Part shown: positions 11,053 through 49,645 of the stretch, piece by piece
Layout: each line of letters opens with the position of its first letter
How positions within the stretch are numbered: the first letter of the stretch is position 1
From: Chloroflexota bacterium
GTDB taxonomy: Bacteria; Chloroflexota; UBA11872
Assembly: GCA_022821905.1 (NCBI GenBank)
Contig: JAJECS010000015.1
Coordinates: 4,867-68,866, forward strand
Direction: 5' to 3'
DNA: 64,000 nt
Made by a program: the position numbers and the translations under genes
The notes under the pieces: generated by a model
Told to the model about the DNA's origin: nothing
Databases searched by the model: none
What the model saw: the letters and a program-made list of their open reading frames with translations, nothing else

Positions 11053-12249
11053 ATGAAGGCCAGGCAAATGCCTGACCTCCGGTCCGAGCTTGCCGAGCAG
11101 GGGTACGTGATCATCAGGCGGACGATTCCGCCTGAGCGACTGGACGGGCTCCGGGAAACTTTCGAGGTCCTGGTCGGGCGGCAATTTGACCGATGGCGGC
11201 GCGAACGTGACGCGGCCGGCCAGTGGCCGGACAGCTACTTTGCCCGTCAGCCGCGAGTCCTGATTCAACGCGTGGTCGACGCGTCAACCGCCGAGGCGGT
11301 GGAATTCTGCCTGGAGAAGGGCACGCTGGGTGTGAGCCGCCGGCTGATGCAGGCGCCGCACGCCGCGCCGACGCTAATGTCGCTGATGTGCAACCCCTCG
11401 GAGGACCACGGGCCGGACCGCTGGCACCGGGACATTCGACCGGCGGCGCTGGCCCCGCTTGCCGGGTTGCAGCACGACGCGCGAGCCAATGGCCCGGCTT
11501 ACGTGCAGTGGAACATTCCGCTCTACGACGACGCGGTGCTATGGGTGGTGCCCGGCAGTCACTGGCGCGTGAACACGGACGAGGAAAACCGAGTCCTTGG
11601 CCGGAACCCCTCGTTGCCCCTGCCTGGCGGCATCCCCGTGGAGCTGAACGCGGGCGATGCCGTGGTGTATCTCAACACGATGCTGCACTGGGGCAGCGAC
11701 TACAGCGCCAAGCTGCGCCGTACGATTCATCTCGGCTACCGGGCGTTTGGCGCGGCCATCTATCCGCACGCCCACGCGTTCAATTGGGACCTGGGCTTCA
11801 CGAGCCGACTTTCGGCCGACACGCGCCGCCAGTTTGAGTCATTCTTCGAGCTGCACGCCAAGGAACGGCGGGTGATCGAAGCGGCGCTTCGAGCGGCGCT
11901 CGAGCGGGACGCCGACGAATTCCAGCGTCAGCTAGCGATTCTTCATCCCGGCGCCGAGGGACGCATGGTGGCCCTGGTGCTGCTGTCCAAGCTCGTCCGG
12001 CGACTACCGCAGCTTGCCGAGACCGATGCCCCGGGATTCGAACTCCGAAAGGACATTGCCGACGCGTTCAGCGCCGGCGAGATCGAGTCGATTGGGTGCC
12101 GGTTCGCCGCACTCGATGCCGCGCTGCGCGCACCGGCCGACCACTTCGTGCCGGGCTTTCAGGACGGCCCGGCAGGCTATGCCTTCGAAAACATGCCAGC
12201 GGGATTTGGCGTCGACGAGTTCATCGGCAGCTGGAGCGTGTCAGCTTAG
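11053..12249 (+). CDS. Phytanoyl-CoA dioxygenase (PhyH) family Fe(II)/2-oxoglutarate oxygenase
   Basis: HxD (WHRDI) and distal His (HWGS) in PhyH-like spacing; start may be the internal ATG at 11068. Confidence 0.7.
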   Translation: MKARQMPDLRSELAEQGYVIIRRTIPPERLDGLRETFEVLVGRQFDRWRRERDAAGQWPDSYFARQPRVLIQRVVDASTAEAVEFCLEKGTLGVSRRLMQAPHAAPTLMSLMCNPSEDHGPDRWHRDIRPAALAPLAGLQHDARANGPAYVQWNIPLYDDAVLWVVPGSHWRVNTDEENRVLGRNPSLPLPGGIPVELNAGDAVVYLNTMLHWGSDYSAKLRRTIHLGYRAFGAAIYPHAHAFNWDLGFTSRLSADTRRQFESFFELHAKERRVIEAALRAALERDADEFQRQLAILHPGAEGRMVALVLLSKLVRRLPQLAETDAPGFELRKDIADAFSAGEIESIGCRFAALDAALRAPADHFVPGFQDGPAGYAFENMPAGFGVDEFIGSWSVSA

Positions 12250-18566: not shown

Positions 18567-19706
18567 CTATCGATACGGGTCCGCGGCGTCCCGCAGACCG
18601 TCACCCAGGAAGTTGAAGAGCATCACGGCGATGATCACGAAGAGCCCCGGAATCATGAGCCAGGGGAAGACCGCGATCACGCTCACGTTTTGAGCGTCCT
18701 GCATGAGCGTGCCCCAGCTCACGGCGGGAGCGCGGATGCCCAGGCGCAGGAAGCTCAACGTCGTTTCGGCCAGGATCATGCTCGGCACCTGCAGTGTCAG
18801 GTGGACGATCAGGTAACTCATGAAGCCGGGCACGAGGTGGTCGAACAGCACGCGCATGTTGCCGGCGCCGGCCACTCGGGCCGCCATCACATAGTCGTTT
18901 TCGCGCAGCTCGAGGATCTTGCCGCGCACGACGCGCGCCAGGCCGGCCCAGCCGACCACCGAGAGCACGATGGTAATGGCGAAGTAGGTCTGCAACGGCG
19001 ACCAGGTGATGGGCACCGCGGCGCTCAGCGACATCCACAGCGGAATGGTGGGGACCGAGATCACGAACTCGATGAACCGCTGAATCAACAGGTCAACCGT
19101 GCCGCCGAAGTATCCGGAGATTCCTCCGATGATCACGCCCAGCACAAAGCTGAGGATCACACCAACCAGACCGATTGAGAGGCTGATGCGGGCCGCGGAA
19201 AGGGTGCGCGAGAACACATCGCGTCCCAGCTCATCGGTGCCGAAGAGGTGGATCGTGGCGCCCTCGACGCCGAAGAAATGCCGATCCCACTCGAAGAGGC
19301 CCCAGAACTTGTACGGAGCGCTCTGCGTGAAGAGGCCGATGGGATGAATCCGCTCCGGATCCTCAACAAAGGTTCGTTTGAACGACTGCGGATCGACGAT
19401 GGATTGCGTGCCATAGATGAAAGGCATCTGCCACGTGCCGCTCGCGTCGATCACATGAATGCGAGTCGGCGGCGAGGAAAGCTTGTCGTGCCGATCCGTG
19501 AAGTCGTAGGGGATCCAGAAGTCATAGGTGATGGCGAAGAAGTAGCCGAGGAGCAACAGAATGCCGCTGGCGTAGCCCAGGCGGTGGCGGCGGAACTTCC
19601 GCCACATGAGCTGCCACTGCGAAGCGACGTAATACTGCTCTTCTTCGGTGAACTCTCGGACTGATACGCCCGATCCTGTCGTCGGTTCGAGTGAAGTTGT
19701 AGCCAT
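18567..19706 (-). CDS. ABC transporter permease (OppC/DppC-like)
   Basis: Multi-TM BPD-transport permease; EAA-like loop. Confidence 0.8.
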   Translation of the reverse strand: MATTSLEPTTGSGVSVREFTEEEQYYVASQWQLMWRKFRRHRLGYASGILLLLGYFFAITYDFWIPYDFTDRHDKLSSPPTRIHVIDASGTWQMPFIYGTQSIVDPQSFKRTFVEDPERIHPIGLFTQSAPYKFWGLFEWDRHFFGVEGATIHLFGTDELGRDVFSRTLSAARISLSIGLVGVILSFVLGVIIGGISGYFGGTVDLLIQRFIEFVISVPTIPLWMSLSAAVPITWSPLQTYFAITIVLSVVGWAGLARVVRGKILELRENDYVMAARVAGAGNMRVLFDHLVPGFMSYLIVHLTLQVPSMILAETTLSFLRLGIRAPAVSWGTLMQDAQNVSVIAVFPWLMIPGLFVIIAVMLFNFLGDGLRDAADPYR

Positions 19707-19709
19707 GAG

Positions 19710-20720
19710 CTAGGCCGCCGCGGCGCGTTCTTGGCGAATCCGCGGATCCACCAGCGCCAATAGGATGTCGGAAAGGAACGTTCCGAAGATGACGAGCGCG
19801 CCTTCAACCATGACGATACTCCCGGCGAGGAACATGTCCTGAGCCCGGAGGGCCGTCAGCAAGACGGGTCCGGTCATCGGCAGACTGAGAACGATGGCGA
19901 CAATGGCGTTGCCGCCGAAGATGCCCGGCAGGATGTAGGCCGTGCTGCTCACGATCGGGTTGAGCGCCAGCCGCACCGGGTACTTGAACAGCAGCTTGCG
20001 CTCGGATACGCCGCGCGCACGGGCTGTGATCACGTATTGCTTGCCGAGCTCGTCGAGCAGCACCCCGCGCATCACCCGCATGGTCCCCGCCGTGCCGGCG
20101 GTGCCTAGCACCACGACGGGCACGATGAGGTGTTGCAACATGTCAATCACTTTTTCAATCGACCAGTCGGCAAGCGCGTATTCGGGCGAGAACAGCCCTC
20201 CAGCCGTGATGTCGAAGTATTTGAACAGCATGTACATCAAGAGCAATGCCAGCATGAAGTTTGGAACCGCCAACCCGATGAAGCCCACGGCGGTAAAGAA
20301 GTAGTCGCCGGGCCGATACTGATGGGTGGCGGAGTAAATGCCGATCGGGATGGCCACCGCAAAGGTGAATATGAGCGCCAATGTCGACAGAATGATCGTG
20401 AAGGGCAGAACCTCGGCGAGGATCTTGGTGACCGGCTGCTCGGCGGAGCGCCAGCTGCCGAATGACCGACCCAGGTCACCGACCACGAAACGTCCAGCCC
20501 AGTAGAAGTATTGCTCGATGGGCGTTCGGTCGAGGCCGTAATAGAGCTTGAGAGATTCAATCTCTTCGCGCTCGAGGAAGGTCCCGGCCTGCTCCTGGCC
20601 GGCGATGTAGTTGGTGAGGAAGTCGCCAGGCGGGAGCTGGATGACGATGAAAACGACCACGCTCAGCAGCCACCATCCGACGACCATGAATAGGAACCGT
20701 CGGACCAGATATGCCCTCAT
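19710..20720 (-). CDS. ABC transporter permease (OppB/DppB-like)
   Basis: Typical OppB N-terminus MRAYLVRRFLFMVV… and BPD permease pattern. Confidence 0.8.
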   Translation of the reverse strand: MRAYLVRRFLFMVVGWWLLSVVVFIVIQLPPGDFLTNYIAGQEQAGTFLEREEIESLKLYYGLDRTPIEQYFYWAGRFVVGDLGRSFGSWRSAEQPVTKILAEVLPFTIILSTLALIFTFAVAIPIGIYSATHQYRPGDYFFTAVGFIGLAVPNFMLALLLMYMLFKYFDITAGGLFSPEYALADWSIEKVIDMLQHLIVPVVVLGTAGTAGTMRVMRGVLLDELGKQYVITARARGVSERKLLFKYPVRLALNPIVSSTAYILPGIFGGNAIVAIVLSLPMTGPVLLTALRAQDMFLAGSIVMVEGALVIFGTFLSDILLALVDPRIRQERAAAA

Positions 20721-35603: not shown

Positions 35604-36569
35604 ATGGCCGCCGATTCGACTTTGCTCGCCTATCTGGTTCCACGGGTTACACACAGCACCGAGAACACCGCGATCGAGGCCCTCGGATACATCTTGTCCC
35701 AGTCGGCGGCGTGCAGAGGCGCCCTGCGGGATGTGCTCCGGTCCGGCGGCTCTGAAATCGGTCCGATCGCGCGGGTGGCGACCGAGGTCAGCGGCGAGAA
35801 GGGGGGTCGCCCGGACCTCGCCGGCTTCGATGAGCACGGCAGGGAGCGCATGCTCATCGAGGTGAAGTTCTGGGCTGGACTCCAGCCCGGGCAGCCGAAT
35901 GCGTACCTCGAGCGATTGATCCAGAGCAATGCGACCGGCCCCTCGGCGCTGCTGTTCGTCGCCCCCGCGGCTCGGCTCGAGACGCTCTGGGCCGAGGTGC
36001 AACGGCGGGCAGAGGCGATGGAAGTCGAGTCGTCAGGGGCGTCGGATCTCAAGAGCGCCGTCGTTGGCGGCGGTGATTGCCGACTGATGCTTACCAGTTG
36101 GGCGGCGCTGCTCGGCCGGATGGCCGCCCGGGCGGCCGAAGCCGGCGAGTCGGCCGTGGAATCGGACATTCGCCAGCTGCGCGGGCTCGCCAACCGGATG
36201 GACGAAGACGCGTTCCTGCCGCTGCAGTCCGAAGAGTTCGCGCCCGAATTCCCACGCCGGATGCGCGGCTTGCGGCGTCTGATTGACGACGCGACCTACC
36301 GGGGACGCAAATCTGGGTGGATTAGCACGAGCGGCCTGATGGTCACACCGCGGCGATCCGGCTACGGACGGTACCTTCGATTGTTCGGCAGCGCTGGTGC
36401 GTGGTTTGGCGTCGACTTCAATCGTTGGGCCGAGCGCGGAGATACGCCTCTGTGGGTGATCTTCAATAAGAAGCAGTCGGTAGTCAGCCTCGGTGACATA
36501 CGCCGCGCGCTGCAGCTGTCCAGTAGTGATCGGCACGTTGCGATTCACCTGCCGGTGGGTGTCGAGTAA
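35604..36569 (+). CDS. Hypothetical protein with N-terminal PD-(D/E)xK nuclease-fold motifs
   Basis: Helix TENTAIEALGYIL, then RPDLAGFDE (D), then LIEVKF (E-x-K) in restriction-endonuclease-fold spacing; a C-terminal ~200 aa of unknown function; the 29 codons after its TAA stop are in frame and protein-like. Confidence 0.5.
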   Translation: MAADSTLLAYLVPRVTHSTENTAIEALGYILSQSAACRGALRDVLRSGGSEIGPIARVATEVSGEKGGRPDLAGFDEHGRERMLIEVKFWAGLQPGQPNAYLERLIQSNATGPSALLFVAPAARLETLWAEVQRRAEAMEVESSGASDLKSAVVGGGDCRLMLTSWAALLGRMAARAAEAGESAVESDIRQLRGLANRMDEDAFLPLQSEEFAPEFPRRMRGLRRLIDDATYRGRKSGWISTSGLMVTPRRSGYGRYLRLFGSAGAWFGVDFNRWAERGDTPLWVIFNKKQSVVSLGDIRRALQLSSSDRHVAIHLPVGVE

Positions 36570-39746: not shown

Positions 39747-39968
39747 ATGACCCAGATCACCGCGCGTGTGCCGGACGAGCTGGCGGAATCGCTGGACGCG
39801 GCGGCGGCAGTGCTCAATCGCAGCCGCGCTGCGGTAGTCCGCCAGGCGCTGGAGCAATACCTGGAGGACTTCGACGACCTGTCCGTCGCGCTGGATCGCC
39901 TGCGGGATCCCGCGGACCCAGTGCTGGACTGGGACGTGGTCAGGCGTGAGCTACTCGGTTCGGATTAA
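39747..39968 (+). CDS. Type II antitoxin, ribbon-helix-helix (RelB/ParD/CopG-like)
   Basis: 73 aa; MTQITARVPDELAESLDAAAAVLNRSRAAVVRQALEQYL; overlaps the toxin gene. Confidence 0.7.
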   Translation: MTQITARVPDELAESLDAAAAVLNRSRAAVVRQALEQYLEDFDDLSVALDRLRDPADPVLDWDVVRRELLGSD

Positions 39969-40206
39969 GCGCAGCGCAGCACGAGATCTGGCCCGTATTC
40001 CCCAGCCGACAAGGGCGCGCTTGGCCCGGGCAATCGACGGCCTGGGCGAACGACCCTTGGCGGGCGTGGCCCTCAAGGGCGGGATGCGTGGATTACGCCG
40101 CCTGCGGGTTGGCGCCTACCGCATCGTGTATGAGCTGCTCGACGACGAACTGGTAGTCCTAGTCGTTCGCGTTGCTCACCGAGCCGGTGTCTACCGCCCT
40201 GTGTGA
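39946..40206 (+). CDS. Type II toxin, RelE/ParE family
   Basis: 86 aa; RelE/ParE-like pattern …RLRVGAYRIVYELLDDELVVLVVRVAHR; GTG start overlapping the antitoxin by 23 bp. Confidence 0.7.
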   Translation: MSYSVRIKRSAARDLARIPQPTRARLARAIDGLGERPLAGVALKGGMRGLRRLRVGAYRIVYELLDDELVVLVVRVAHRAGVYRPV

Positions 40207-43789: not shown

Positions 43790-45011
43790 CGTGGCCCAGG
43801 AGTTCGAGCGACACACGCCTCACGACCCGCTGCCCATGCCGCCGCCGATGGATTTTCCGGAGGAAGGCGCGGACGAGTCCGAGGTCTTGAGCGACGTACA
43901 CGCGCGGATTGCGGAGGATCCGTTCTCGGTCGAGCGAAACTTCGGCATCACCTACGTCGGCCCGCCGCATCCCATGGCGGAGCGCGTGGCGACGCTGACC
44001 CGGGGCACCTACTTCGTGGAGTGGGCGCGGCAGATGAACCCCGGCGCCTATGCCTTCGAGAAGGAGGCCATACGCATGATGGCCAGCCTGCTCGGACGGC
44101 CCGAGGCCACGGGCTTCATCACTAGCGGCGGCACCGAGTCCAACATGTCGGCCATGCGGCTGGCGCGCAATCTGGGCGGCAAGTCGGACCCGGAAATCGT
44201 GATGCCGACCTCGGCGCACTACAGCTTCCGGCTGGGCGCGGAGTTGTTGGGAATCGACCTGATCGAAACGCCGGTCGACGAGCAGATGGCTCCCGACATG
44301 GACGCCGTCATGCGCGCCATCACGCCCAACACCGTGGGGTTGATCTGCTCCGCGCCCGAGGGGAATTTCGGTCAACTCGATCCGATCCCCGAGTTCGCCA
44401 AGCTGGCGCTGGAGCACGATTTGTACCTGCACGTCGACGGCGCGTTTGGCGGCTTCATCCTGCCGTTCATGCGCGAGCTGGGCCATGACCTCTGCGATTT
44501 CGATCTCAGCGTGCCCGGCGTCAGCTCGTTCATGACCGACGGACACAAGCTGGGCCAGCTGCCGGTGGCGACCGGATTCTTCCTGATCCGCGACGCGAGC
44601 CTGCTGGAGGCGGTGCCGCTGGATTGGACCTTCATCCACACGCTCACCGCCACCAAGCCGGGCGATCACGCGGCGACCGCCTGGGCCGTGATGCGGCACC
44701 TGGGACGCGCCGGCTACCGGGCGTCCACCGCGCGGCTGCTGGAGTCGGTGCGCATCGTCGTCGAGGGCATCGAGTCCATCGACGAACTGCGGCTGATGGT
44801 GAAACCGCTCATCAGCGTCATCAACTTCACCTCGGACACGGTGGACATGGAGCAGGTGTTCAACGAGCTTTCAGCGCGCGGCTGGGGCAGCACCTTCGGC
44901 CACATGAACGGCCACGCCCGCATCCGCCTGTCGCTCCACCCCTACCGCGACGCCGACCACGCCCACGGGTTTGTGGAAGCGCTGAGGGAGTCGGTTCAGG
45001 CCGCGGGGTAG
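43790..45011 (+). CDS. PLP-dependent group II decarboxylase family protein
   Basis: …GFITSGGTESNMSAMRLAR… and PLP-lysine context SFMTDGHKLG; GTG start 3 nt after the upstream stop. Confidence 0.7.
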
Positions 45012-45029
45012 ACGCTTCCTCGGCAGCAA

Positions 45030-45132
45030 AGGTCCGTCATTCCGGCGAAAGCCGGAATCCAGAATGCCTTATCGGCTGCTACTTGGATTCGGGAGCGAGT
45101 GGCGGCAGGAATGGAGTTTCCGAGCGCAAGTG
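45030..45132. repeat. REP/MITE-like palindromic element, copy 3 (opposite orientation to copies 1-2)
   Basis: GTCATTCCGGC-GAAA-GCCGGAATC perfect hairpin with a GNRA loop, then GGAATGGAGTTTCCGAGCGCAAG; fills the convergent intergenic region. Confidence 0.5.
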
Positions 45133-45137
45133 GGTTG

Positions 45138-48107
45138 TCAGAAGGGCAGATCGTCGGCCGATAGGAGGTCATCGTCCGTTGAGTACTCGTCGAAGGGTCT
45201 GGAATCCTCGGTTGCCCGTGTATCGATAACGTCCACGCGGTTACGCGCGGTGGGGTTGTACTCGTCGAGCAGCTCGTTGACGAATGCGGAGGGCTGCTCG
45301 GCATCCGCAATCAGCCAAGCGCCGCGCTTACCCCGCGTGAGCGCGACGTAGAACACCCGCCGCTCCTCGGCGTGGAGAAACGGCTCCGTTGGTGGTGCCA
45401 CCAAGTCCAAGAGCGGATCATCCTCGACCCGCGAAGGGAAGCCACGCCTCTTGTCGATCAAATCGAGTACAACCACGCAATCAGCCTCCAAGCCCTTTGC
45501 ACTGTGCACCGTGCGGAATCGCACGCGGCCAGAAAGCGCTGAAGGCACCCAGGTTTCCTGTAATACCTTGCGGCTATCTCTGTAACGCCCCAGCACCAGC
45601 ACTGAGGGTGCTTGCGGGTCTCGTGCCGACAACTTCGCGATCTCGCGCAGCGCCTGCTCCAGGCCAACAGCGGGCGATCCAGCCTTGATTACTGTGATAG
45701 TGCCCGCCGGCGGCAGGTGTTTGGCTGGCCGGAGATTGCGCTGCGTCTGCGCCGGATTACGGCGGATAAAGGCGGTCGAGGGCTCCGACACGCCTGGCCC
45801 GAAGCGGAATGTCTGCGTCAACGCTCGTTCCCGCACGTGACCGAGGTGCTTCCCGCAGTCCCGCACGAGTCCCACATCGCTGCCGGTGAAGCGGTAGATC
45901 GACTGCCAGTCATCGCCGACCAGGAAGAACGCCGTGTCTGGCCCGCGCAACGCAGAAAGCAGTTTCATTCGCTCGGCCGAGATGTCCTGGAATTCGTCGA
46001 CCAGCACGTAGCGGTAGGGAGATTGCCAGCGTCCGTCGAGAATGCGCTCGGTGGCTCCGTGAATTTGGTCGTGGAAATCGATTTTCCCCTCGCCCGCCAG
46101 TTGCCGCTCATAGCGCTGCCTCAACTCTTCGAACACTTCCAGGAAAACGCCAGCACGAGTCGGTTCGGCGGAGTCTGCGGCGCGCTGGCGCAATTCGTCG
46201 GCCGTCAACTTGCTCGATCGAACGTGTCGCAGGAATGCATCAAGCACGTATGCCAGCCGCGAAATCACGTATTCGTCGCGCAGCTTCTTGATCACCTGCG
46301 ATGGCGGTAGCGGTTGAAACGTGATCCCATGGATTTCAAGTATCTGCCTGAGCCGCTGCAGCAGCGTGCCTTCCCCGTGCTCCCAGCTATAGGTTTCAAT
46401 CAGGATGGTGCCGTTCCCGCGATGGATGCGCCGTTTCCAGCGGACGCCCTCGGCGTAGCCGGGCCATGGGGCGCTGTCGTCGCGGTCCAGCGCCAAGTGC
46501 TCGAGATAGACGCCTCCGCCATCTGGCAGCGGCACATAGAAGTCGGGGCGGTAGAGGCTTTGGGTGTAGGGATAGTCCCGCTCGTAGTAGAACCGCACAC
46601 TATTGAGTGTGAGGAAATTGGCGACGATCAACTCCTCAAAGCTCTTGACAAGGTCTCCGCTCAGCGCCCGCAACTCGACCCCGCGCACGTAGCTGTCGTA
46701 CTCCTCCTCGGTATCGAAGTCGAAAGGCGAGCGATAGGGGTACAGATGGCTAGTGATGAAGTCGTGCATCGGCCGTGCCAAGCTGGAATCTAGAAGCAAC
46801 GCCTCGAGCTGCCGTTGGATGAACCGCTGCCGACTCGGACCGTCCGAAGCCAATTCCGATACAGGCTTGTCGCGTCCCAGTACACGATTGCCAAAGCTGT
46901 GAAAGGTGCTGGCATCAGCCGCCATCGAAGAGGGCAAGCGTTTGCGGATTTGCTCCGCTGCGTCTGAGTTGAAAGCCAGCACGAGGACTCGGCCAGGGCG
47001 CACGCCGCGGTCGCGCACCAGGTGGGCAACCTTGCCGGTGACTACTGCCGTCTTGCCGGTGCCAGCGCCAGCCAGCACCAGCGTGACGTCTTCGTCGGTG
47101 GCAATTGCCTCAGCCTGCTCGTCAGTCAGGATCGTGTCTTTACTGCCAAGGGTCTTTTGCATGCTTGCGGCAGTTATCTGTACATACTTCGCGTTGGCCT
47201 TCTCGCGGTGGCGCTCGAAGTTCTTTGTCGAGGAGATTTTCGCCAGCCGGTTTAGCAAGGGGCGTTTGTTCTCCGGCAGCCACTTGCGCACTGACTTCCC
47301 TTGCTCGACGGCAACGGCGATGCGCTCGCGAAGCGCCTGCGGTGCACCCGGATGACGGACATAGCGTTCACCTTGAATTAACGCGCTGGCCTCGCAGTCC
47401 AGCGCTGCTAGCTCTGGTGCTAGCCGGGTGGCCTGCTTCTTCCGCGTCTCGGCAGCCTCAAACCTCCGATTAGCCTGCTCGCAGCGGCGCTTGAAGCCGT
47501 CTTTCGAGGAGAGTGGCCGCAGCCGGTTCAGAAACTCAGACTCGCGCTCTGGCAGCAATTCTTGCACCGCCCGAGCTTGCTCTACAGCGGCGGCGATGCG
47601 CTCACGTAGCCCGTTCGCTGCCCAGTGACGGACGTACTGGTTCCCGTCAAAGAAAGCGCTGACTTCCTGATCCAGCGTCGCGAGCCGCGCCGCTAGCCGG
47701 GCGGCCTGCTTCTTCCCCGCCTCTCTAGCCGCATACCGTCGGTTGGCCTGCTCGCAACGACGCTTGAAGCCATCTTTCGAAGCGAGTGGTCGCAGCCGGT
47801 CCAGCAGCCTGCGCTCATTATCTGGCAGCCACTTCCGCAACGCCTCGGCCTCCTTGACGACTCTAGCGATTTGCTCACGCAGCCCGGTCGCGGCTGCCGC
47901 TACTTGACGGACGTGACGCGTGCCGTCGAAGAGCCTTCTAGCCTCAAGGTCCCGCGCCGAAAGTCGCGCTGCAAGCTGAGCGATTTGGCGCTGTCGCCGA
48001 CGCTTGGCACGGTAGGAGACGAGGAGGATCGCTAGGACGAGGACAACCAGCAATCCAAGAGCGACGAGCACCGCGTCGATCATGGCGATCACCGCTTCAG
48101 TGCTCAC
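45138..48107 (-). CDS. Membrane-anchored UvrD/Rep-like superfamily 1 helicase with N-terminal tandem repeats and SSB-tail-like C-terminus
   Basis: Walker A LAGAGTGKT, motif II VLVDEFQD, III FLVGDDWQSIYRFTGS, V TVHSAKGLEADCVVV, VI YVALTRGKR; N-terminal TM helix; ends …SADDLPF; codon usage visibly more A/T-rich than the flanks. Confidence 0.8.
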   Translation of the reverse strand: MSTEAVIAMIDAVLVALGLLVVLVLAILLVSYRAKRRRQRQIAQLAARLSARDLEARRLFDGTRHVRQVAAAATGLREQIARVVKEAEALRKWLPDNERRLLDRLRPLASKDGFKRRCEQANRRYAAREAGKKQAARLAARLATLDQEVSAFFDGNQYVRHWAANGLRERIAAAVEQARAVQELLPERESEFLNRLRPLSSKDGFKRRCEQANRRFEAAETRKKQATRLAPELAALDCEASALIQGERYVRHPGAPQALRERIAVAVEQGKSVRKWLPENKRPLLNRLAKISSTKNFERHREKANAKYVQITAASMQKTLGSKDTILTDEQAEAIATDEDVTLVLAGAGTGKTAVVTGKVAHLVRDRGVRPGRVLVLAFNSDAAEQIRKRLPSSMAADASTFHSFGNRVLGRDKPVSELASDGPSRQRFIQRQLEALLLDSSLARPMHDFITSHLYPYRSPFDFDTEEEYDSYVRGVELRALSGDLVKSFEELIVANFLTLNSVRFYYERDYPYTQSLYRPDFYVPLPDGGGVYLEHLALDRDDSAPWPGYAEGVRWKRRIHRGNGTILIETYSWEHGEGTLLQRLRQILEIHGITFQPLPPSQVIKKLRDEYVISRLAYVLDAFLRHVRSSKLTADELRQRAADSAEPTRAGVFLEVFEELRQRYERQLAGEGKIDFHDQIHGATERILDGRWQSPYRYVLVDEFQDISAERMKLLSALRGPDTAFFLVGDDWQSIYRFTGSDVGLVRDCGKHLGHVRERALTQTFRFGPGVSEPSTAFIRRNPAQTQRNLRPAKHLPPAGTITVIKAGSPAVGLEQALREIAKLSARDPQAPSVLVLGRYRDSRKVLQETWVPSALSGRVRFRTVHSAKGLEADCVVVLDLIDKRRGFPSRVEDDPLLDLVAPPTEPFLHAEERRVFYVALTRGKRGAWLIADAEQPSAFVNELLDEYNPTARNRVDVIDTRATEDSRPFDEYSTDDDLLSADDLPF
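47148..47987 (-). repeat. Three tandem ~275-bp (about 92-aa) repeats inside the helicase gene
   Basis: Repeat units (L/F)FDGxxYVRH…LRExIAxAVEQ…LPxxE…LxRLRPLxSKDGFKRRCEQANRR…KKQAxRLAxxLAxLD; the third copy is degenerate. Confidence 0.7.
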
Positions 48108-48261
48108 ATCGCAACCTCGTCGTGCCGGCCGCCAAACTCCGGCCGTCGCGCGAATCCAGACTCGAGACAGAACAAGAAGTCGTCAGCGCACCTGAAGTTG
48201 AAGGTGGCAGGTGCGGTTCGCGAACCACTCTCCCTATTCTCTACTGCGGCGCCTACCGACA

Positions 48262-48345
48262 CACTCTTTAGATTCTTCGCTTCGCTCAGAATGACAAAGG
48301 AGTCGCCCGGAATGACAGGGAAGTCGTTTGGGATGACAGAAGTAT
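48262..48345. repeat. REP/MITE-like element, copy 1, with three TGTCATYCY direct repeats at ~21-bp spacing (read on - strand)
   Basis: On the - strand: CTGTCATCCC…CTGTCATTCC…TTTGTCATTCTGAGCGAAGCGAAGAATCTAAAG; lies in the 5' region of the helicase gene; creates the spurious ORF 48198..48404. Confidence 0.55.
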
Positions 48346-48375
48346 CGGCCGCATTGTCCCGAAACTGTCACATGG

Positions 48376-49467
48376 TCAAGCCCACGGATCGAGCGCGACT
48401 TTGACCACGCCGTCAGAAGCACCGGCTGCGCGGACCAGCTCGATGCCCTCGCCGGCCTGGGCCAGTGGCAGGCGGTGCGTGAGCATGCGCTCCAACGGAT
48501 AGCGACCCGCTTCGGCCAACTGGACGGCGGCGCGGACGGCCTGCGTCTCGTGGCTGTTGACGCCAAGTACGCGGACCTCGCCGGCCACGAGCTTGTCCCA
48601 GGGCAGTTCGACCGGCGCGCCGCCCTTGGACCCGGCCATGACGAAGGTGCCGAGCGGCCGCACGACCGAGGCCGCTTGTCCGGCCGCCCCGGGACTGGCC
48701 GTCACGTCGATGGCGACGTCGGCCATGCGGCCTTCCGTGAGCTCGGCAATGTCGGTCACGGTTGAGTCCGACGCGATGAGTGCGTCAGTGGCGCCAAACT
48801 CCCGGGCGAGATCAAGGCGCGCGCAATCGCGGGCCAGGCCGACCACGATGACCCGGCTCGCTCCGGCGGCGTGCGCCGCGATGGTGCAGGCCAATCCCTG
48901 CGGTCCGGGTCCGAAGACGACGACCGTGTCGCCAATGCCGGCGTTGCCCAATGTGCGAACCCAGCGGATGCCGTTGGCCAGCACGGCGCCGATCACGACG
49001 CCGACCTCCGGCGTGATGCGCTCGGAGACGCGGTGCACGCGGGCGCGCGGCGGCAGGTAGAGAAACTGGCCGTAGGCGCCCCACAGGTGGGGCGGGTCGG
49101 CGGCGGATAGTCGCCCGCCGTAGCCCTGGTCGTCGGCGCACATCTGGTAGGAGCCTCGCCGGCACCACTCGCAGCGGCCGCAACCGAAGCTCGCCTCCAC
49201 GATGACGCGGTCGCCGACGGCTGCCTGCCAGCGTTCGGCGGCGGACGCGCCGATCCGCTCGATGCGCCCCACGATTTCGTGGCCAAGCAGGGCCGGGACA
49301 TTGCGGATCACGGCCGAGTGGCCGTCCCAGTGGTGGATGTCGCTGCCGCAGATGCCGGCCAGCTCGACGCGCAGCAGGCCGTCGTGGTCACCGATGGCGG
49401 GCAGCGGGAAGTCGCGCGGCTCGATGCGGTGGGGCGCGACGAGGACGGCGCCTCGGCTTGCTGTCAC
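48376..49467 (-). CDS. Zinc-dependent alcohol dehydrogenase (MDR) family
   Basis: GICGSDIHHWDGH…GHEIVG…C-x2-C-x2-C-x7-C structural zinc site (CGRCEWCRRGSYQMC); Rossmann GPGPQG. Confidence 0.8.
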   Translation of the reverse strand: MTASRGAVLVAPHRIEPRDFPLPAIGDHDGLLRVELAGICGSDIHHWDGHSAVIRNVPALLGHEIVGRIERIGASAAERWQAAVGDRVIVEASFGCGRCEWCRRGSYQMCADDQGYGGRLSAADPPHLWGAYGQFLYLPPRARVHRVSERITPEVGVVIGAVLANGIRWVRTLGNAGIGDTVVVFGPGPQGLACTIAAHAAGASRVIVVGLARDCARLDLAREFGATDALIASDSTVTDIAELTEGRMADVAIDVTASPGAAGQAASVVRPLGTFVMAGSKGGAPVELPWDKLVAGEVRVLGVNSHETQAVRAAVQLAEAGRYPLERMLTHRLPLAQAGEGIELVRAAGASDGVVKVALDPWA

Positions 49468-49579: not shown

Positions 49580-49645
49580 TTAGCCCCTTAGATTCCTCGC
49601 CTGTGGCTCGGAATGACAAATGGGGGTGGCTCGGTATGACGGATG
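49580..49645. repeat. REP/MITE-like element, copy 2
   Basis: On the - strand: CCGTCATACCGAGCCAC…TTTGTCATTCCGAGCCACAGGCGAGGAATCTAAGG; lies in the 5' region of the ADH gene. Confidence 0.55.

What the first reader, a model, noticed from the sequence alone, without database searches (positions are those of the whole stretch)
45011..48376. Lower-GC island encoding a membrane-anchored UvrD-like SF1 helicase of unusual architecture, bounded by inverted copies of a palindromic repeat
The 989-aa ORF at 45138..48107 has all the UvrD/Rep helicase motifs. It is unusual in four ways. It has an N-terminal transmembrane helix. It has three tandem ~92-aa basic coiled-coil repeats before the Walker A. It has about 300 aa inserted between motifs Ic and II where UvrD has an ~100-aa 1B domain. 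That insert contains a restriction-endonuclease-fold-like E…D…E-x-(K->L) pattern (EELIVANFL … YRPDFYVP … VYLEHL). Its codon usage (aaa/gaa/att/cgt) and GC are visibly lower than the surrounding ~70% GC genes, suggesting horizontal acquisition. The gene is monocistronic. It is flanked at 45030-45132 and 48262-48345 by copies of the same GTCATTCYG…GAATC palindromic element in inverted orientation, like a cargo gene between terminal repeats. A RelE/ParE TA module (39.7 kb) and a PD-(D/E)xK protein (35.6 kb) lie nearby. This is my best candidate for an undescribed single-gene defense or mobile-element function (membrane-tethered helicase, possibly helicase-nuclease).
Basis: partly seen in the sequence, partly recalled or inferred. 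Interest (0 to 1): 0.72.

Follow-up and report, generated by a model that had tools for sequence, protein, structure and literature searches.

The report
Membrane-anchored helicase-nuclease in a variable slot
One accessory gene sits in a genomic slot that is empty or holds other cargo in related Chloroflexota; it encodes a membrane-tethered DNA helicase with a built-in nuclease domain, a divergent member of a large, apparently uncharacterised family carried mostly on plasmids, prophages and integrative elements, and is a plausible but untested defence against foreign DNA.

Summary
The 989-aa ORF (45138..48107, minus strand) is an SF1A helicase closest to E. coli helicase IV (HelD). It has a conserved N-terminal TM anchor, three ~92-aa helical repeats, and a ~145-aa domain nested in 1B. 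That domain models confidently as a Vsr-like PD-(D/E)xK nuclease, and its putative catalytic residues are invariant. GC3 is 0.72, against 0.78-0.91 for other genes.

The "terminal inverted repeats" are not supported. They are copies of a dispersed REP-like palindrome that also flanks neighbouring genes in genomes lacking the helicase.

The island idea is nevertheless right. The segment 45012-48375 fills a slot between two convergent metabolic genes. Across 13 informative related loci the slot holds the helicase in 5, is empty in 5 (including outgroups) and holds other cargo in 3. Helicase alleles are far older (dS 0.6) than their flanks (dS 0.05-0.16), and dN/dS is ~0.25.

The nuclease insert is not unique. 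It defines a family of more than 1,000 clusters found on plasmids, prophages and ICE-like elements, always as a lone gene. The TM anchor, the triplicated stalk and an SSB-C-terminus-like tail (…DDLPF) are the clade-specific novelties. A defence role is plausible but untested.

The parts
45012..48375 (.). Variable segment (hotspot occupant) between the stop codons of two convergent conserved genes
   Evidence: In L009/L010/L011 and the outgroups L100/L101 the two stop codons are only ~15-25 nt apart. L006, L008 and L012 carry other cargo at the same junction.
45138..48107 (-). CDS for the 989-aa TM-anchored helicase IV-like helicase-nuclease (GTG start, stop at 45138-45140)
   Evidence: Helicase dN/dS is 0.22-0.31 between orthologs.
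48115..48118 (-). Shine-Dalgarno-like GAGG, 7 nt upstream of the GTG start
   Evidence: It supports the long start that includes the TM helix; the database entry P0001 is annotated 89 aa shorter.
48015..48089 (-). N-terminal transmembrane helix (aa 7-31) followed by a poly-basic stretch (N-out/C-in by the positive-inside rule, an inference)
   Evidence: Conserved in P0003 and in the upstream extensions of L004 and L005.
47160..47993 (-). Three tandem ~92-aa helical repeats (aa 39-316) forming an all-helical stalk. The unit is homologous to the single helical unit that precedes the core in non-TM relatives.
   Evidence: L004 has two units instead of three.
46863..47129 (-). Helicase domain 1A, N-terminal part with Walker A (aa 327-415; AGAGTGKT at 346-353)
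46278..46817 (-). Insertion relative to E. coli HelD (aa 431-610), nested in the helical 1B region
46323..46670 (-). Vsr-like PD-(D/E)xK nuclease core (aa 480-595). Motifs: SFEELxxANFL, YRPDF, YLEH, WKR..H, LIETYS.
45303..46010 (-). Helicase motifs II-VI (aa 700-935; VDEFQD, GDDWQSIY, TVHSAKGLE, VALTRG)
45141..45257 (-). Disordered acidic C-terminal tail (aa 951-989) ending in DDDLLSADDLPF, which resembles the SSB C-terminal tip
45036..45059 (+). Perfect palindrome GTCATTCCGGCGAAAGCCGGAATC (8-bp stem, GAAA loop) between the convergent stop codons. It is a dispersed REP-like element and could act as a terminator hairpin in both directions (inference).
   Evidence: A copy occupies the same position after the PLP-decarboxylase stop in L006, L008 and L012, which carry other cargo.
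48271..48337 (-). Degenerate copy of the same element family plus two further GTCAT(T/C)C half-sites at 21-nt spacing, in the 268-nt region upstream of the helicase
   Evidence: (D20). It folds no better than shuffled sequence.
49591..49617 (-). Sibling copy of the right-hand element in the next intergenic region (upstream of the ADH gene), outside the variable segment
   Evidence: Equivalent copies lie upstream of the ADH gene in the empty-site genome L009.
43791..45011 (+). Left flank: conserved PLP-dependent decarboxylase gene, used as the anchor for locus comparison
48376..49467 (-). Right flank: conserved Zn-dependent alcohol dehydrogenase-family gene

Best explanation
SHOWN.
- The 3.36-kb segment is the occupant of a hypervariable slot between two convergent backbone genes in a Chloroflexota lineage.
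- It carries one gene under purifying selection, whose alleles are exchanged independently of the flanks.
- The product is an SF1A helicase of the helicase IV (HelD) branch, with a Vsr-like PD-(D/E)xK nuclease domain nested in domain 1B.
- That architecture defines a large family found as a lone gene on plasmids, prophages and ICE-like elements.
- In this clade the usual N-terminal beta domain is replaced by a TM anchor plus a triplicated helical unit (a stalk). The usual C-terminal Zn ribbons are replaced by a disordered acidic tail ending in an SSB-C-terminus-like DDLPF.

INFERRED.
- It works as a stand-alone helicase-nuclease directed against foreign DNA (phage, plasmid or incoming ssDNA).
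- The motor translocates 3'->5' on ssDNA, as SF1A enzymes do.
- The nuclease sits in 1B, the domain that in UvrD/PcrA contacts the duplex at the junction (established knowledge of those enzymes, not tested here). From there it would nick or cut the DNA being unwound.
- The N-out/C-in anchor and stalk hold the head at the cytoplasmic face of the membrane, where foreign DNA enters.
- The SSB-like tail either recruits SSB-client proteins or acts as a regulatory or competing mimic.
For: Identity:
- Helicase IV (HelD) is the best NCBIfam hit at 317 bits, against 125 or less for PcrA/UvrD/Rep. Identity to E. coli HelD is 33% over 353 aa.
- The UvrD/PcrA/Rep fold is recovered.
- E491, E492, E536, H537 and K558 are invariant; D522 is conserved in at least 90%. 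The motif persists at ~30% identity.
- The insert alone hits PADLOC PDC-S68, PDC-S69 and HEAT_CxxC_PD-DEXK.

Accessory and exchanged:
- 5 empty, 5 helicase and 3 other-cargo loci among 13 informative ones, and the outgroups are empty.
- Carriers are scattered on the flank tree.
- Helicase dS is 0.60-0.68 against flank dS 0.05-0.16 in L003/L004/L005. Helicase dN/dS is 0.22-0.31.
- GC3 is 0.71-0.75 in all orthologs, against 0.84-0.91 for their neighbours.

Family on mobile elements:
- 88 plasmids; 41 of 80 viral loci; ICE-like contexts L014 and L015.
- 1,668 representative clusters at 50% identity.
- No conserved partner gene. Neighbours include recombinases plus Hhe, HamA, MzaB, PDC-S37, PDC-S06 and methyltransferases. 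Lit, DUF262 and an addiction-module antidote gene lie nearby on plasmids.
- One alternative cargo of the same slot is a ZorD/DpdE-like SNF2 helicase.

Membrane anchoring recurs independently in 4 other family members.
Against: - There is no experimental evidence for defence, for nuclease activity or for helicase polarity.
- The protein belongs to no established defence family. Its GajB and RTasHel hits reflect generic UvrD similarity.
- The defence-gene neighbours were counted without any background rate.
- The flanking genes of this slot are metabolic, and the EEP plus membrane-protein cargo seen in L006/L008 is not a recognised defence system.
- The canonical lysine of the (D/E)xK motif is replaced (E536-H537-L538). 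The domain could therefore be a non-catalytic DNA-binding module.
- Part of the elevated dS could come from weaker codon bias in the helicase.
Confidence: 0.45

Rival explanations
1. It is an accessory DNA repair or recombination helicase that works like E. coli helicase IV (a RecF-pathway partner). The nuclease would process ends or flaps. The low GC3 would reflect low expression rather than foreign origin.
For: - The closest characterised relative is helicase IV, which has been implicated with RecJ in the E. coli RecF pathway (PMC2806897).
- The gene is under purifying selection.
- It has no partner genes.
- An SSB-C-terminus-like tail would fit an enzyme working inside the SSB interactome.
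Against: - The gene shows patchy presence/absence, and the ancestral state of the site is empty.
- Its alleles are much older than their flanks.
- The family is heavily represented on plasmids, prophages and ICE-like elements.
- A membrane anchor is not expected for a chromosome-wide repair enzyme.
- It fails the HelD curated cut-off and lacks the Helicase_IV_N domain.
Confidence: 0.2
2. The family serves the mobile elements that carry it, for example in DNA processing for conjugative transfer, rolling-circle replication, element maintenance or exclusion. The copy in this window would be stranded cargo left in a recombination hotspot.
For: - L014 and L015 place relatives within ~2 kb of Replic_Relax genes. 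L014 also has a TrwB-like coupling protein, and both loci carry large serine recombinases.
- The module occurs on 88 plasmids, 53 of them conjugative or mobilisable.
- A membrane anchor would suit an enzyme acting at a DNA-translocation site.
Against: - No relaxase, coupling-protein or recombinase gene is a consistent neighbour: at most 5 of 104 neighbours match any one family.
- 35 of the 88 plasmids are non-mobilisable.
- The slot in this window and in its four orthologs contains no other mobile-element gene, yet the gene stays under purifying selection.
Confidence: 0.15
3. The nuclease-fold insert is catalytically dead. It would serve as a DNA-structure or mismatch-sensing or protein-docking module of a pure helicase or translocase, much as RAP and other Vsr-like domains act as binding modules.
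For: - The canonical lysine of the (D/E)xK motif is absent (E-H-L/F at aa 536-538).
- The equivalent of the Vsr general base H69 could not be located.
Against: - The acidic residues that bind metal in Vsr-like enzymes (equivalents of E25 and D51) are invariant or nearly so across very distant relatives, together with an extra acid (E536), H537, K558 and H562.
- The EDxHD family also has an acid near this position and is an active nuclease (PMC3239194).
Confidence: 0.15
4. One reading: the helicase is cargo of a small mobile element bounded by inverted terminal copies of a palindromic repeat.
For: - Copies of the GTCATTCY...RGAATC motif lie near both ends in opposite orientation.
- All three full copies in the 64-kb window cluster around this locus.
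Against: - There is no extended inverted repeat.
- The right copy is degenerate and folds poorly, whereas the left copy is a perfect hairpin.
- The same elements flank the ADH gene in empty-site genomes, and follow the decarboxylase stop next to unrelated cargos in L006, L008 and L012.
- There is no target-site duplication at the boundaries when compared with the empty site.
- There is no transposase or integrase in the slot and no tRNA in the window.
Confidence: 0.03

Closest known systems
E. coli DNA helicase IV (HelD, NF008276 / PRK11054)
   Same: It is the best-scoring characterised relative (317 bits). The core is collinear at 33% identity, including the helical 1B elements, a very small 2B region and the linker before Walker A. 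Non-TM relatives of the query retain a weak Helicase_IV_N match.
   Different: The query scores below the curated cut-off of 543 bits. It lacks the Helicase_IV_N domain and instead has a TM helix plus three helical repeats. It carries ~145 extra residues that form a nuclease fold where HelD has ~37 residues. It ends in an acidic SSB-like tail. It is an accessory gene in a variable slot.
Vsr endonuclease and the I-Bth0305I (EDxHD) homing-endonuclease catalytic domain
   Different: Here the domain is nested inside a helicase 1B domain. There is no Zn site and no NUMOD DNA-binding domain. The third strand reads E-H-(F/L), and a Lys and a His on the following helix are invariant. Pfam does not recognise the domain.
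RecB / AddA / AdnB helicase-nucleases
   Same: They also combine an SF1A UvrD-like motor with a PD-(D/E)xK nuclease in one polypeptide, and they are whole-chain structural matches.
   Different: In those enzymes the nuclease is a C-terminal RecB-family domain, and they work in multi-subunit complexes. Here a Vsr-like domain is inserted in 1B and there is no partner gene.
Single-protein helicase-nuclease defence systems: Hhe (PADLOC) and Nhi (descriptions from my own memory, not tested here)
   Same: The concept is the same: one stand-alone protein combines an SF1 helicase with a restriction-endonuclease-fold (for Hhe, Vsr-like) nuclease and is encoded in variable regions.
   Different: The query's insert does not match the Hhe model, and Hhe is not among the top 25 PADLOC hits for the whole protein. 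From memory, those helicases belong to the Upf1/Dna2-like branch and their nuclease is terminal. Neither has a TM anchor.
Gabija GajB
   Same: It is a UvrD-like SF1A helicase, and many GajB models hit the helicase core.
   Different: Gabija needs the adjacent GajA nuclease-ATPase, and no such gene is in the slot. GajB has no nested nuclease and no TM helix.
PADLOC candidates PDC-S68 / PDC-S69
   Same: They share the nuclease module (E 4e-10 and 1e-8 with the insert alone).
   Different: Only profile positions ~1045-1187 of the ~1,200-position PDC-S68 models are matched, and PDC-S69 is a 289-position model. The helicase context is different. No paper naming these candidates was found.
Zorya (membrane ZorAB complex plus soluble ZorC/ZorD)
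   Same: Zorya pairs a membrane-embedded component with soluble subunits, of which ZorD is annotated in PADLOC as a SWI2/SNF2 helicase with an Mrr-like nuclease (PMC11946911 abstract). That parallels the proposed logic of placing a helicase-nuclease at the membrane.
   Different: Zorya is a multi-protein system with a motor-like membrane complex. Here a single TM helix is fused directly to the helicase-nuclease.

Membership tests
SF1A UvrD/Rep-like helicases | Pfam UvrD-helicase and UvrD_C above gathering score, with intact Walker A and motifs II-VI | tested here: met
   PF00580 scores 144 bits against a cut-off of 23, and PF13361 scores 44.6 against 25.6. G347-T353, D704, E705, Q707, D708, G731, D732, R925 and others are invariant in 56 sequences.
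SF1A UvrD/Rep-like helicases | UvrD/PcrA/Rep fold | tested here: met
   Foldseek against the PDB gives UvrD, PcrA and Rep at E 1e-13 to 1e-10, probability 1.0, TM-score (target-normalised) 0.44-0.53.
DNA helicase IV (HelD, NCBIfam NF008276 equivalog) | Score at or above the curated cut-off of 543 bits | tested here: not met
   317.2 bits.
DNA helicase IV (HelD) | N-terminal Helicase_IV_N domain (PF12462) | tested here: not met
   The query has no hit, even at E<=10 on the N-terminal 322 aa. E. coli HelD scores 5.6e-63 and the non-TM relative P0007 scores 7.4e-7.
DNA helicase IV (HelD) | Core closer to HelD than to UvrD, Rep or PcrA | tested here: met
   317 bits for HelD against 125 or less for the pcrA, uvrD and rep models. 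BLASTP to E. coli HelD gives 33% identity over 353 aa.
PD-(D/E)xK (restriction-endonuclease-like) superfamily, Vsr-like branch | Alpha-beta-beta-beta-alpha-beta core fold | tested here: met
PD-(D/E)xK, Vsr-like branch | Conserved metal-binding acids equivalent to Vsr E25 and D51 | tested here: met
   E491 and E492 on the first helix are invariant, and D522 in YRPDF is conserved in at least 90%. The equivalence to Vsr residues is inferred from the motif pattern described in PMC3239194, not from a structural superposition.
PD-(D/E)xK, Vsr-like branch | General base and remaining catalytic residues (Vsr H64, H69, D97, or the canonical Lys of (D/E)xK) | tested here: inconclusive
   E536, H537, K558 and H562 are invariant, but the canonical Lys position is L/F.
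PD-(D/E)xK nucleases | Metal-dependent nuclease activity | not testable with these tools
   This requires biochemistry.
Gabija (GajAB) | Adjacent GajA (OLD-type ATPase plus TOPRIM nuclease) partner gene | tested here: not met
   The slot 45012-48375 holds one gene, and both flanks are metabolic genes. The GajB hits reflect generic UvrD similarity.
DRT (RTasHel) | Reverse-transcriptase domain fused to the helicase or encoded next to it | tested here: not met
   The protein has no RT domain, and the slot has no neighbouring gene.
PADLOC candidate PDC-S68 | Match along the ~1,200-position profile | tested here: not met
   Only profile positions 1045-1156 (model PDLC05066) and 1101-1187 (model PDLC05065) are matched, and only by the insert.
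Hhe (PADLOC) | Match to the Hhe model | tested here: not met
   Hhe is absent from the insert's hits at E<=1 and from the top 25 hits for the whole protein. The model is in the library, because a neighbour protein elsewhere hits it at 1.6e-130.
RNA-polymerase-recycling HelD/HelR (Gram-positive type) | NCBIfam NF041464 or NF041254 above cut-off | tested here: not met
   18 bits against a cut-off of 419, and 29.6 bits against 750. HelD-RNAP structures rank below UvrD.
Transposable element bounded by terminal inverted repeats | Extended terminal inverted repeats, a target-site duplication and a transposase | tested here: not met
   No extended inverted repeat. No duplication when compared with the empty site. 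No transposase ORF. The elements are dispersed.
Variable genomic hotspot / island | Presence/absence polymorphism with alternative cargo at one conserved junction, and a gene history decoupled from the flanks | tested here: met
   5 helicase, 5 empty and 3 other-cargo loci among 13 informative ones. Flank tree. dS contrast between helicase and flanks.
Defence island / defence gene | Enrichment next to known defence genes, and a protective phenotype | tested here: inconclusive
   Defence-type neighbours are seen (Hhe, HamA, MzaB, PDC-S37, PDC-S06 and methyltransferases; Lit and DUF262; a ZorD/DpdE-like SNF2 helicase as alternative cargo). No background rate was computed and no phenotype is known.

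The most novel reading that the evidence does not exclude
The helicase IV-like proteins with a nested Vsr-like nuclease would be a widespread, so far unnamed single-gene immune system of mobile-element origin. The TM clade in this window would be a membrane-tethered sentinel version of it. The stalk would hold the helicase-nuclease head under the membrane to intercept DNA as it enters the cell (phage genome ejection, conjugative ssDNA or transforming DNA). Its SSB-C-terminus mimic would either hijack or compete for the SSB interactome on the invader's ssDNA.
Probability: 0.2. Interest if true: 0.8.

Novelty: new variant of a known kind. Interest (0 to 1): 0.55.

Why it matters
- Helicase-nuclease fusions are recurrent engines of DNA repair and of defence against phages and plasmids. 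This case shows a different construction: a nuclease nested in domain 1B of a HelD-type motor.
- The family is large: about 1,000 clusters at 50% identity at E<=1e-10, and 1,668 at E<=1e-3. It sits on plasmids, prophages and integrative elements. I found no paper or curated model describing it.
- The window's clade adds three features that are unusual for an SF1 helicase: a membrane anchor, a repeat-built stalk whose length varies between orthologs, and an SSB-tail mimic. Each makes a testable prediction about where the enzyme acts and with which partners.
- The locus is also a clean example of a small, integrase-free variable slot between convergent core genes in Chloroflexota. Mobile and defence gene content in that phylum is poorly explored.
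- If a defence role were confirmed, the family would be a compact, single-gene system for experimental study.

Tried and rejected
- A long terminal inverted repeat was looked for and not found.
- A gapped palindrome pattern search gave only a chance-level hit inside the gene.
- The sigma-70 promoter and intrinsic-terminator scans gave nothing above background.
- Pfam on the insert and on the N-terminal region found no family, even at E<=10. PHROGs has no family for the insert.
- The exact database twin P0001 could not be located on a contig.
- The AFDB50 fold library was unavailable. Foldseek against the PDB with the whole chain found no helicase with a nested nuclease.
- An enterobacterial-looking prophage homolog (L020) has no match in complete E. 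coli genomes.
- Literature searches found nothing describing this family. They covered PDC-S68, helicase IV plus nuclease or defence, Hhe/Vsr/PADLOC, helicase IV plus Vsr, and membrane-anchored UvrD. Two large defence-discovery papers also have nothing.
- No tRNA in the window and no Rfam family between 44000 and 50000.
- Membership of Gabija, DRT, Hhe, PDC-S68 and RNAP-recycling HelD was considered and rejected (see the membership tests).
- The ParE/RHH pair and the weak VRR_NUC protein were rejected as evidence of an island. They lie in the conserved backbone, and the latter is sub-threshold.

Full report
**1. What is there**

The ORF at 45138..48107 is real. It lies on the minus strand and encodes 989 aa from a GTG start. 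A GAGG lies 7 nt upstream of that start. The identical database entry P0001 is annotated from an internal Met as 900 aa. The long start is nevertheless supported. The 71%-identical ortholog P0003 begins with the same hydrophobic helix followed by poly-Arg. In L004 and L005 the same helix plus poly-Arg is encoded in frame just upstream of the called starts.

Pfam finds a UvrD-helicase domain split across residues 327-748, plus UvrD_C. NCBIfam places the protein nearest to E. coli DNA helicase IV. The score is 317 bits, below the 543-bit cut-off but far above the pcrA, uvrD and rep models.

**2. The four "unusual" features**

- **TM helix.** Residues ~7-31 have a Kyte-Doolittle mean of 3.4 and are followed by RAKRRRQRQ. 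By the positive-inside rule this predicts an N-out/C-in anchor with a cytoplasmic helicase, which is an inference.
- **Repeats.** Three tandem units are spaced 273/276 nt apart at 64-71% nt identity. They are entirely helical in the full-length AF2 model (pLDDT 81; helices span residues 3-320). The third unit aligns with the single helical unit that precedes the helicase core in non-TM relatives, where Y249, R251, E298, R301 and N305 are nearly invariant. The stalk is therefore a triplication of a native HelD-family element. Ortholog L004 has two units.
- **Insert.** BLASTP against E. coli HelD aligns query residues 285-430 and 611-955. HelD has ~37 residues where the query has ~180.

The I-Bth0305I paper lists the Vsr-like catalytic set as Vsr E25, D51, H64, H69 and D97, with an extra acid at the F62 position in the EDxHD family (PMC3239194). 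The helix Glu and the P-D-F Asp have clear counterparts here. The base and lysine positions could not be assigned without model coordinates.

**3. Composition**

The gene has GC 0.618 and GC3 0.72. All other credible genes in the window have GC3 of 0.78-0.91. The same gap is present in every ortholog, at 0.71-0.75 against 0.84-0.91. Another low-GC stretch at 19-21 kb keeps native GC3 (0.82-0.83), so it is not comparable.

**4. The flanking palindromes**

The two flanks share only the short motif GTCATTCY…RGAATC. No extended inverted repeat exists, and the 8-mer is only mildly over-represented, at 7 occurrences against 2.9 expected.

The left copy (45036-45059) is a perfect 8-bp hairpin with a GAAA loop and is stable on both strands (z about -3.6 to -3.9). 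The right region folds no better than shuffled sequence. A sibling of the right element lies in the next intergenic region at 49591.

Across related loci the same elements sit upstream of the ADH gene even in empty-site genomes (for example L009). They also follow the decarboxylase stop codon next to unrelated cargos in L006, L008 and L012. They are a dispersed REP-like family, not terminal repeats of a helicase-carrying element. There is no target-site duplication, no transposase, no tRNA in the window and no Rfam match between 44000 and 50000.

**5. Is it an island? Yes, but of a different kind**

The four closest orthologs (68-74% identity) lie in the same neighbourhood: ADH | helicase | PLP-decarboxylase | LamG/DMFA2_C | GFO_IDH. 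I used the decarboxylase as an anchor to find related loci. This returned seven loci from species-representative Chloroflexota MAGs and three metagenome contigs. None of them carries the helicase.

| State of the slot | Loci | Detail |
|---|---|---|
| Helicase | window, L002-L005 | The L003 copy is degraded |
| Empty | L009, L010, L011, L100, L101 | The two convergent stop codons are ~15-25 nt apart; L100 and L101 are the more distant relatives (81-83% anchor identity) |
| Other cargo | L006 | EEP-family protein plus a multi-TM protein with an HNH-like motif |
| Other cargo | L008 | That membrane protein only |
| Other cargo | L012 | A small ORF plus a split SNF2 helicase hitting DpdE/ZorD models at 1e-38 |

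Of 13 informative loci, 5 have the helicase, 5 are empty and 3 hold other cargo. The variable segment in the window is exactly 45012-48375.

On a flank-gene tree the carriers fall in three separate places. For L003, L004 and L005 the flank genes have dS of 0.05-0.16, but their helicases have dS of 0.60-0.68. Helicase dN/dS is 0.22-0.31. The gene is therefore functional, and its alleles are much older than the backbone they sit in. This points to exchange or replacement of alleles at the slot, presumably by recombination through the conserved flanks (inference). Weaker codon bias could inflate the helicase dS somewhat, but it is unlikely to account for a 4- to 10-fold difference that appears only in the closest genome pairs.

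**6. The wider family**

The nuclease insert is not peculiar to this protein.

- The core of the insert (aa 462-600) finds 1,668 representative clusters at 50% identity, 977 of them at E<=1e-10. Nearly all are 900-1,000-aa proteins with the module at about residues 330-490.
- tblastn finds the module inside "UvrD-helicase domain-containing proteins" on 88 plasmids. The hosts include Acinetobacter, Rhizobium, Vibrio, Pseudomonas, a Hymenobacter, a Paenisporosarcina and a haloarchaeon.
- It is present in 41 of 80 related IMG/VR contigs, with the motif KSxEE..IANxL / YxPDF / IY(I/L)EHFG / WKR..H / LIETxS intact at ~30% identity.
- Typical members have an N-terminal beta domain plus one helical unit (a weak Helicase_IV_N match) and three C-terminal Topo-I-type Zn ribbons.
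- Contexts include ICE-like regions with large serine recombinases, Replic_Relax and a TrwB-like protein. They also include plasmid accessory regions carrying Lit, DUF262 and an addiction-module antidote gene.

A bulk scan of 104 flanking proteins from 30 non-redundant loci found no conserved partner. The recurrent neighbours were recombinases or integrases and repressors. Scattered among them were known or candidate defence proteins: Hhe, HamA, MzaB, PDC-S37, PDC-S06 and methyltransferases. The insert alone matches PADLOC candidates PDC-S68 and PDC-S69 and a HEAT_CxxC_PD-DEXK model.

**7. What is specific to this clade**

- Among 204 full-length family members, an N-terminal TM helix occurs in five. 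One is P0003, from the query's own clade, and the other four are independent lineages.
- The triplicated stalk was seen only in the query's clade.
- The acidic tail is confined to the query's clade. It ends in DDDLLSADDLPF (or …DDLPY) and is disordered in the model (residues 963-989).
- The tail resembles the SSB C-terminal tip, which is DDDIPF in E. coli and DISDDDLPF in Gram-positive SsbA (PMC5531588).

**8. Mechanism**

*Shown:* a membrane-anchored HelD-type SF1A helicase with a nested, highly conserved Vsr-like nuclease fold, encoded by a lone, selected and horizontally exchanged gene.

*Inferred:* ATP-driven 3'->5' translocation, as in SF1A enzymes. The nuclease would be positioned through domain 1B at the ss/ds junction, where 1B contacts DNA in UvrD/PcrA. 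Action would take place at the inner face of the membrane. The SSB-like tail would mediate protein recruitment or regulation.

The mobile-element association, the patchy distribution, the allele turnover, the lone-gene organisation and the defence-type neighbours make an anti-foreign-DNA role the most likely reading (about 0.45). The rivals are an accessory repair helicase (HelD has been implicated in the RecF pathway; PMC2806897), a mobile-element DNA-processing function, and a non-catalytic nuclease fold.

**9. Comparison with known systems, and novelty**

The protein fails the membership tests for HelD proper, Gabija, DRT, Hhe, PDC-S68 and RNAP-recycling HelD. It works most like the helicase-nuclease fusions (RecB/AddA, and from memory the single-gene Hhe and Nhi systems), but with a different helicase branch and a different placement of the nuclease. 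No solved structure shows a helicase with such an insert. No paper describing the family was found in the searchable library. That does not prove the family is undescribed.

I rate it a new variant of a known kind and of moderate-to-good interest. The family is large and experimentally tractable, and the TM anchor, stalk and SSB-mimic combination is unusual. All functional claims remain inferences.

Noticed in passing
window 45141-45257 (minus strand; aa 951-989): The C-terminal tail ends in DDDLLSADDLPF, which closely resembles the SSB C-terminal interaction tip (DDDIPF in E. coli, DISDDDLPF in Gram-positive SsbA). It is conserved in orthologs P0002 and P0004 and is absent from the 200 or so other family members examined, which usually have Zn ribbons instead.
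   Followed up: partly
L006 12291-13526 (minus) and L008 10916-~12150 (minus): One alternative cargo of the same slot is a ~400-aa protein with a twin-arginine-like signal (RRRFLQLS), an HNH-like motif (WSHF(F/I)PRSQGGG) and several C-terminal TM helices. In L006 it is accompanied by an Exo_endo_phos (EEP) protein at 11387-12211. It has only weak MgtE and PDC-M09B hits, and its function is unknown.
   Followed up: partly
L012 11327-13725: Another cargo of the slot is a 183-aa ORF with no Pfam family match, plus an SNF2-type helicase that is split into two ORFs. The helicase hits DpdE/ZorD models at about 1e-38 and is preceded by a run of short peptide repeats. The adjacent ADH gene is frameshifted in this genome.
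   Followed up: partly
L003 9734-12127: The helicase copy in this 434-kb contig looks degraded. It lacks the TM helix and repeats, the upstream frame is scrambled, and the C-terminus is frameshifted (P0005, 708 aa). This suggests pseudogenisation in one lineage.
   Followed up: partly
window 48282-48337: Upstream of the helicase start, three GTCAT(T/C)C half-sites recur with a 21-nt period. This looks like a small tandem array of the REP-like element. Any role as a promoter, operator or terminator is unknown.
   Followed up: no
window 47838-48107 (the first 89 codons of the ORF): The public database entry for the identical protein (P0001) starts 89 residues downstream. It therefore omits the TM helix and most of the first repeat, so automated annotation hides the membrane anchor.
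   Followed up: yes
P0181, P0193, P0216, P0245 (family members): Four family members outside the query's clade also begin with a TM helix followed by basic residues, with only ~150-180 aa before Walker A. Membrane anchoring therefore appears to have arisen repeatedly in this family.
   Followed up: partly
window 18567-20720: This is a second low-GC stretch (0.605-0.612), but its two genes keep native GC3 (0.82-0.83). The dip therefore reflects amino-acid composition rather than foreign origin. The gene products were not examined.
   Followed up: no
window 39747-40206: An RHH_1 antitoxin and ParE toxin pair. It lies in the conserved backbone, and an RHH gene sits at the same position in L003 and L004.
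   Followed up: yes
window 35604-36569: A 321-aa protein with only a sub-threshold VRR_NUC hit (E 4e-4, 20.8 bits against a 23.8-bit cut-off).
   Followed up: partly
L016 1-3944 (Vibrio parahaemolyticus plasmid P2): Next to the insert-bearing helicase lie a second UvrD-domain protein and an AAA-family ATPase in divergent orientation, as well as a DUF262 protein. This may be a small defence cluster on a mobilisable plasmid.
   Followed up: no
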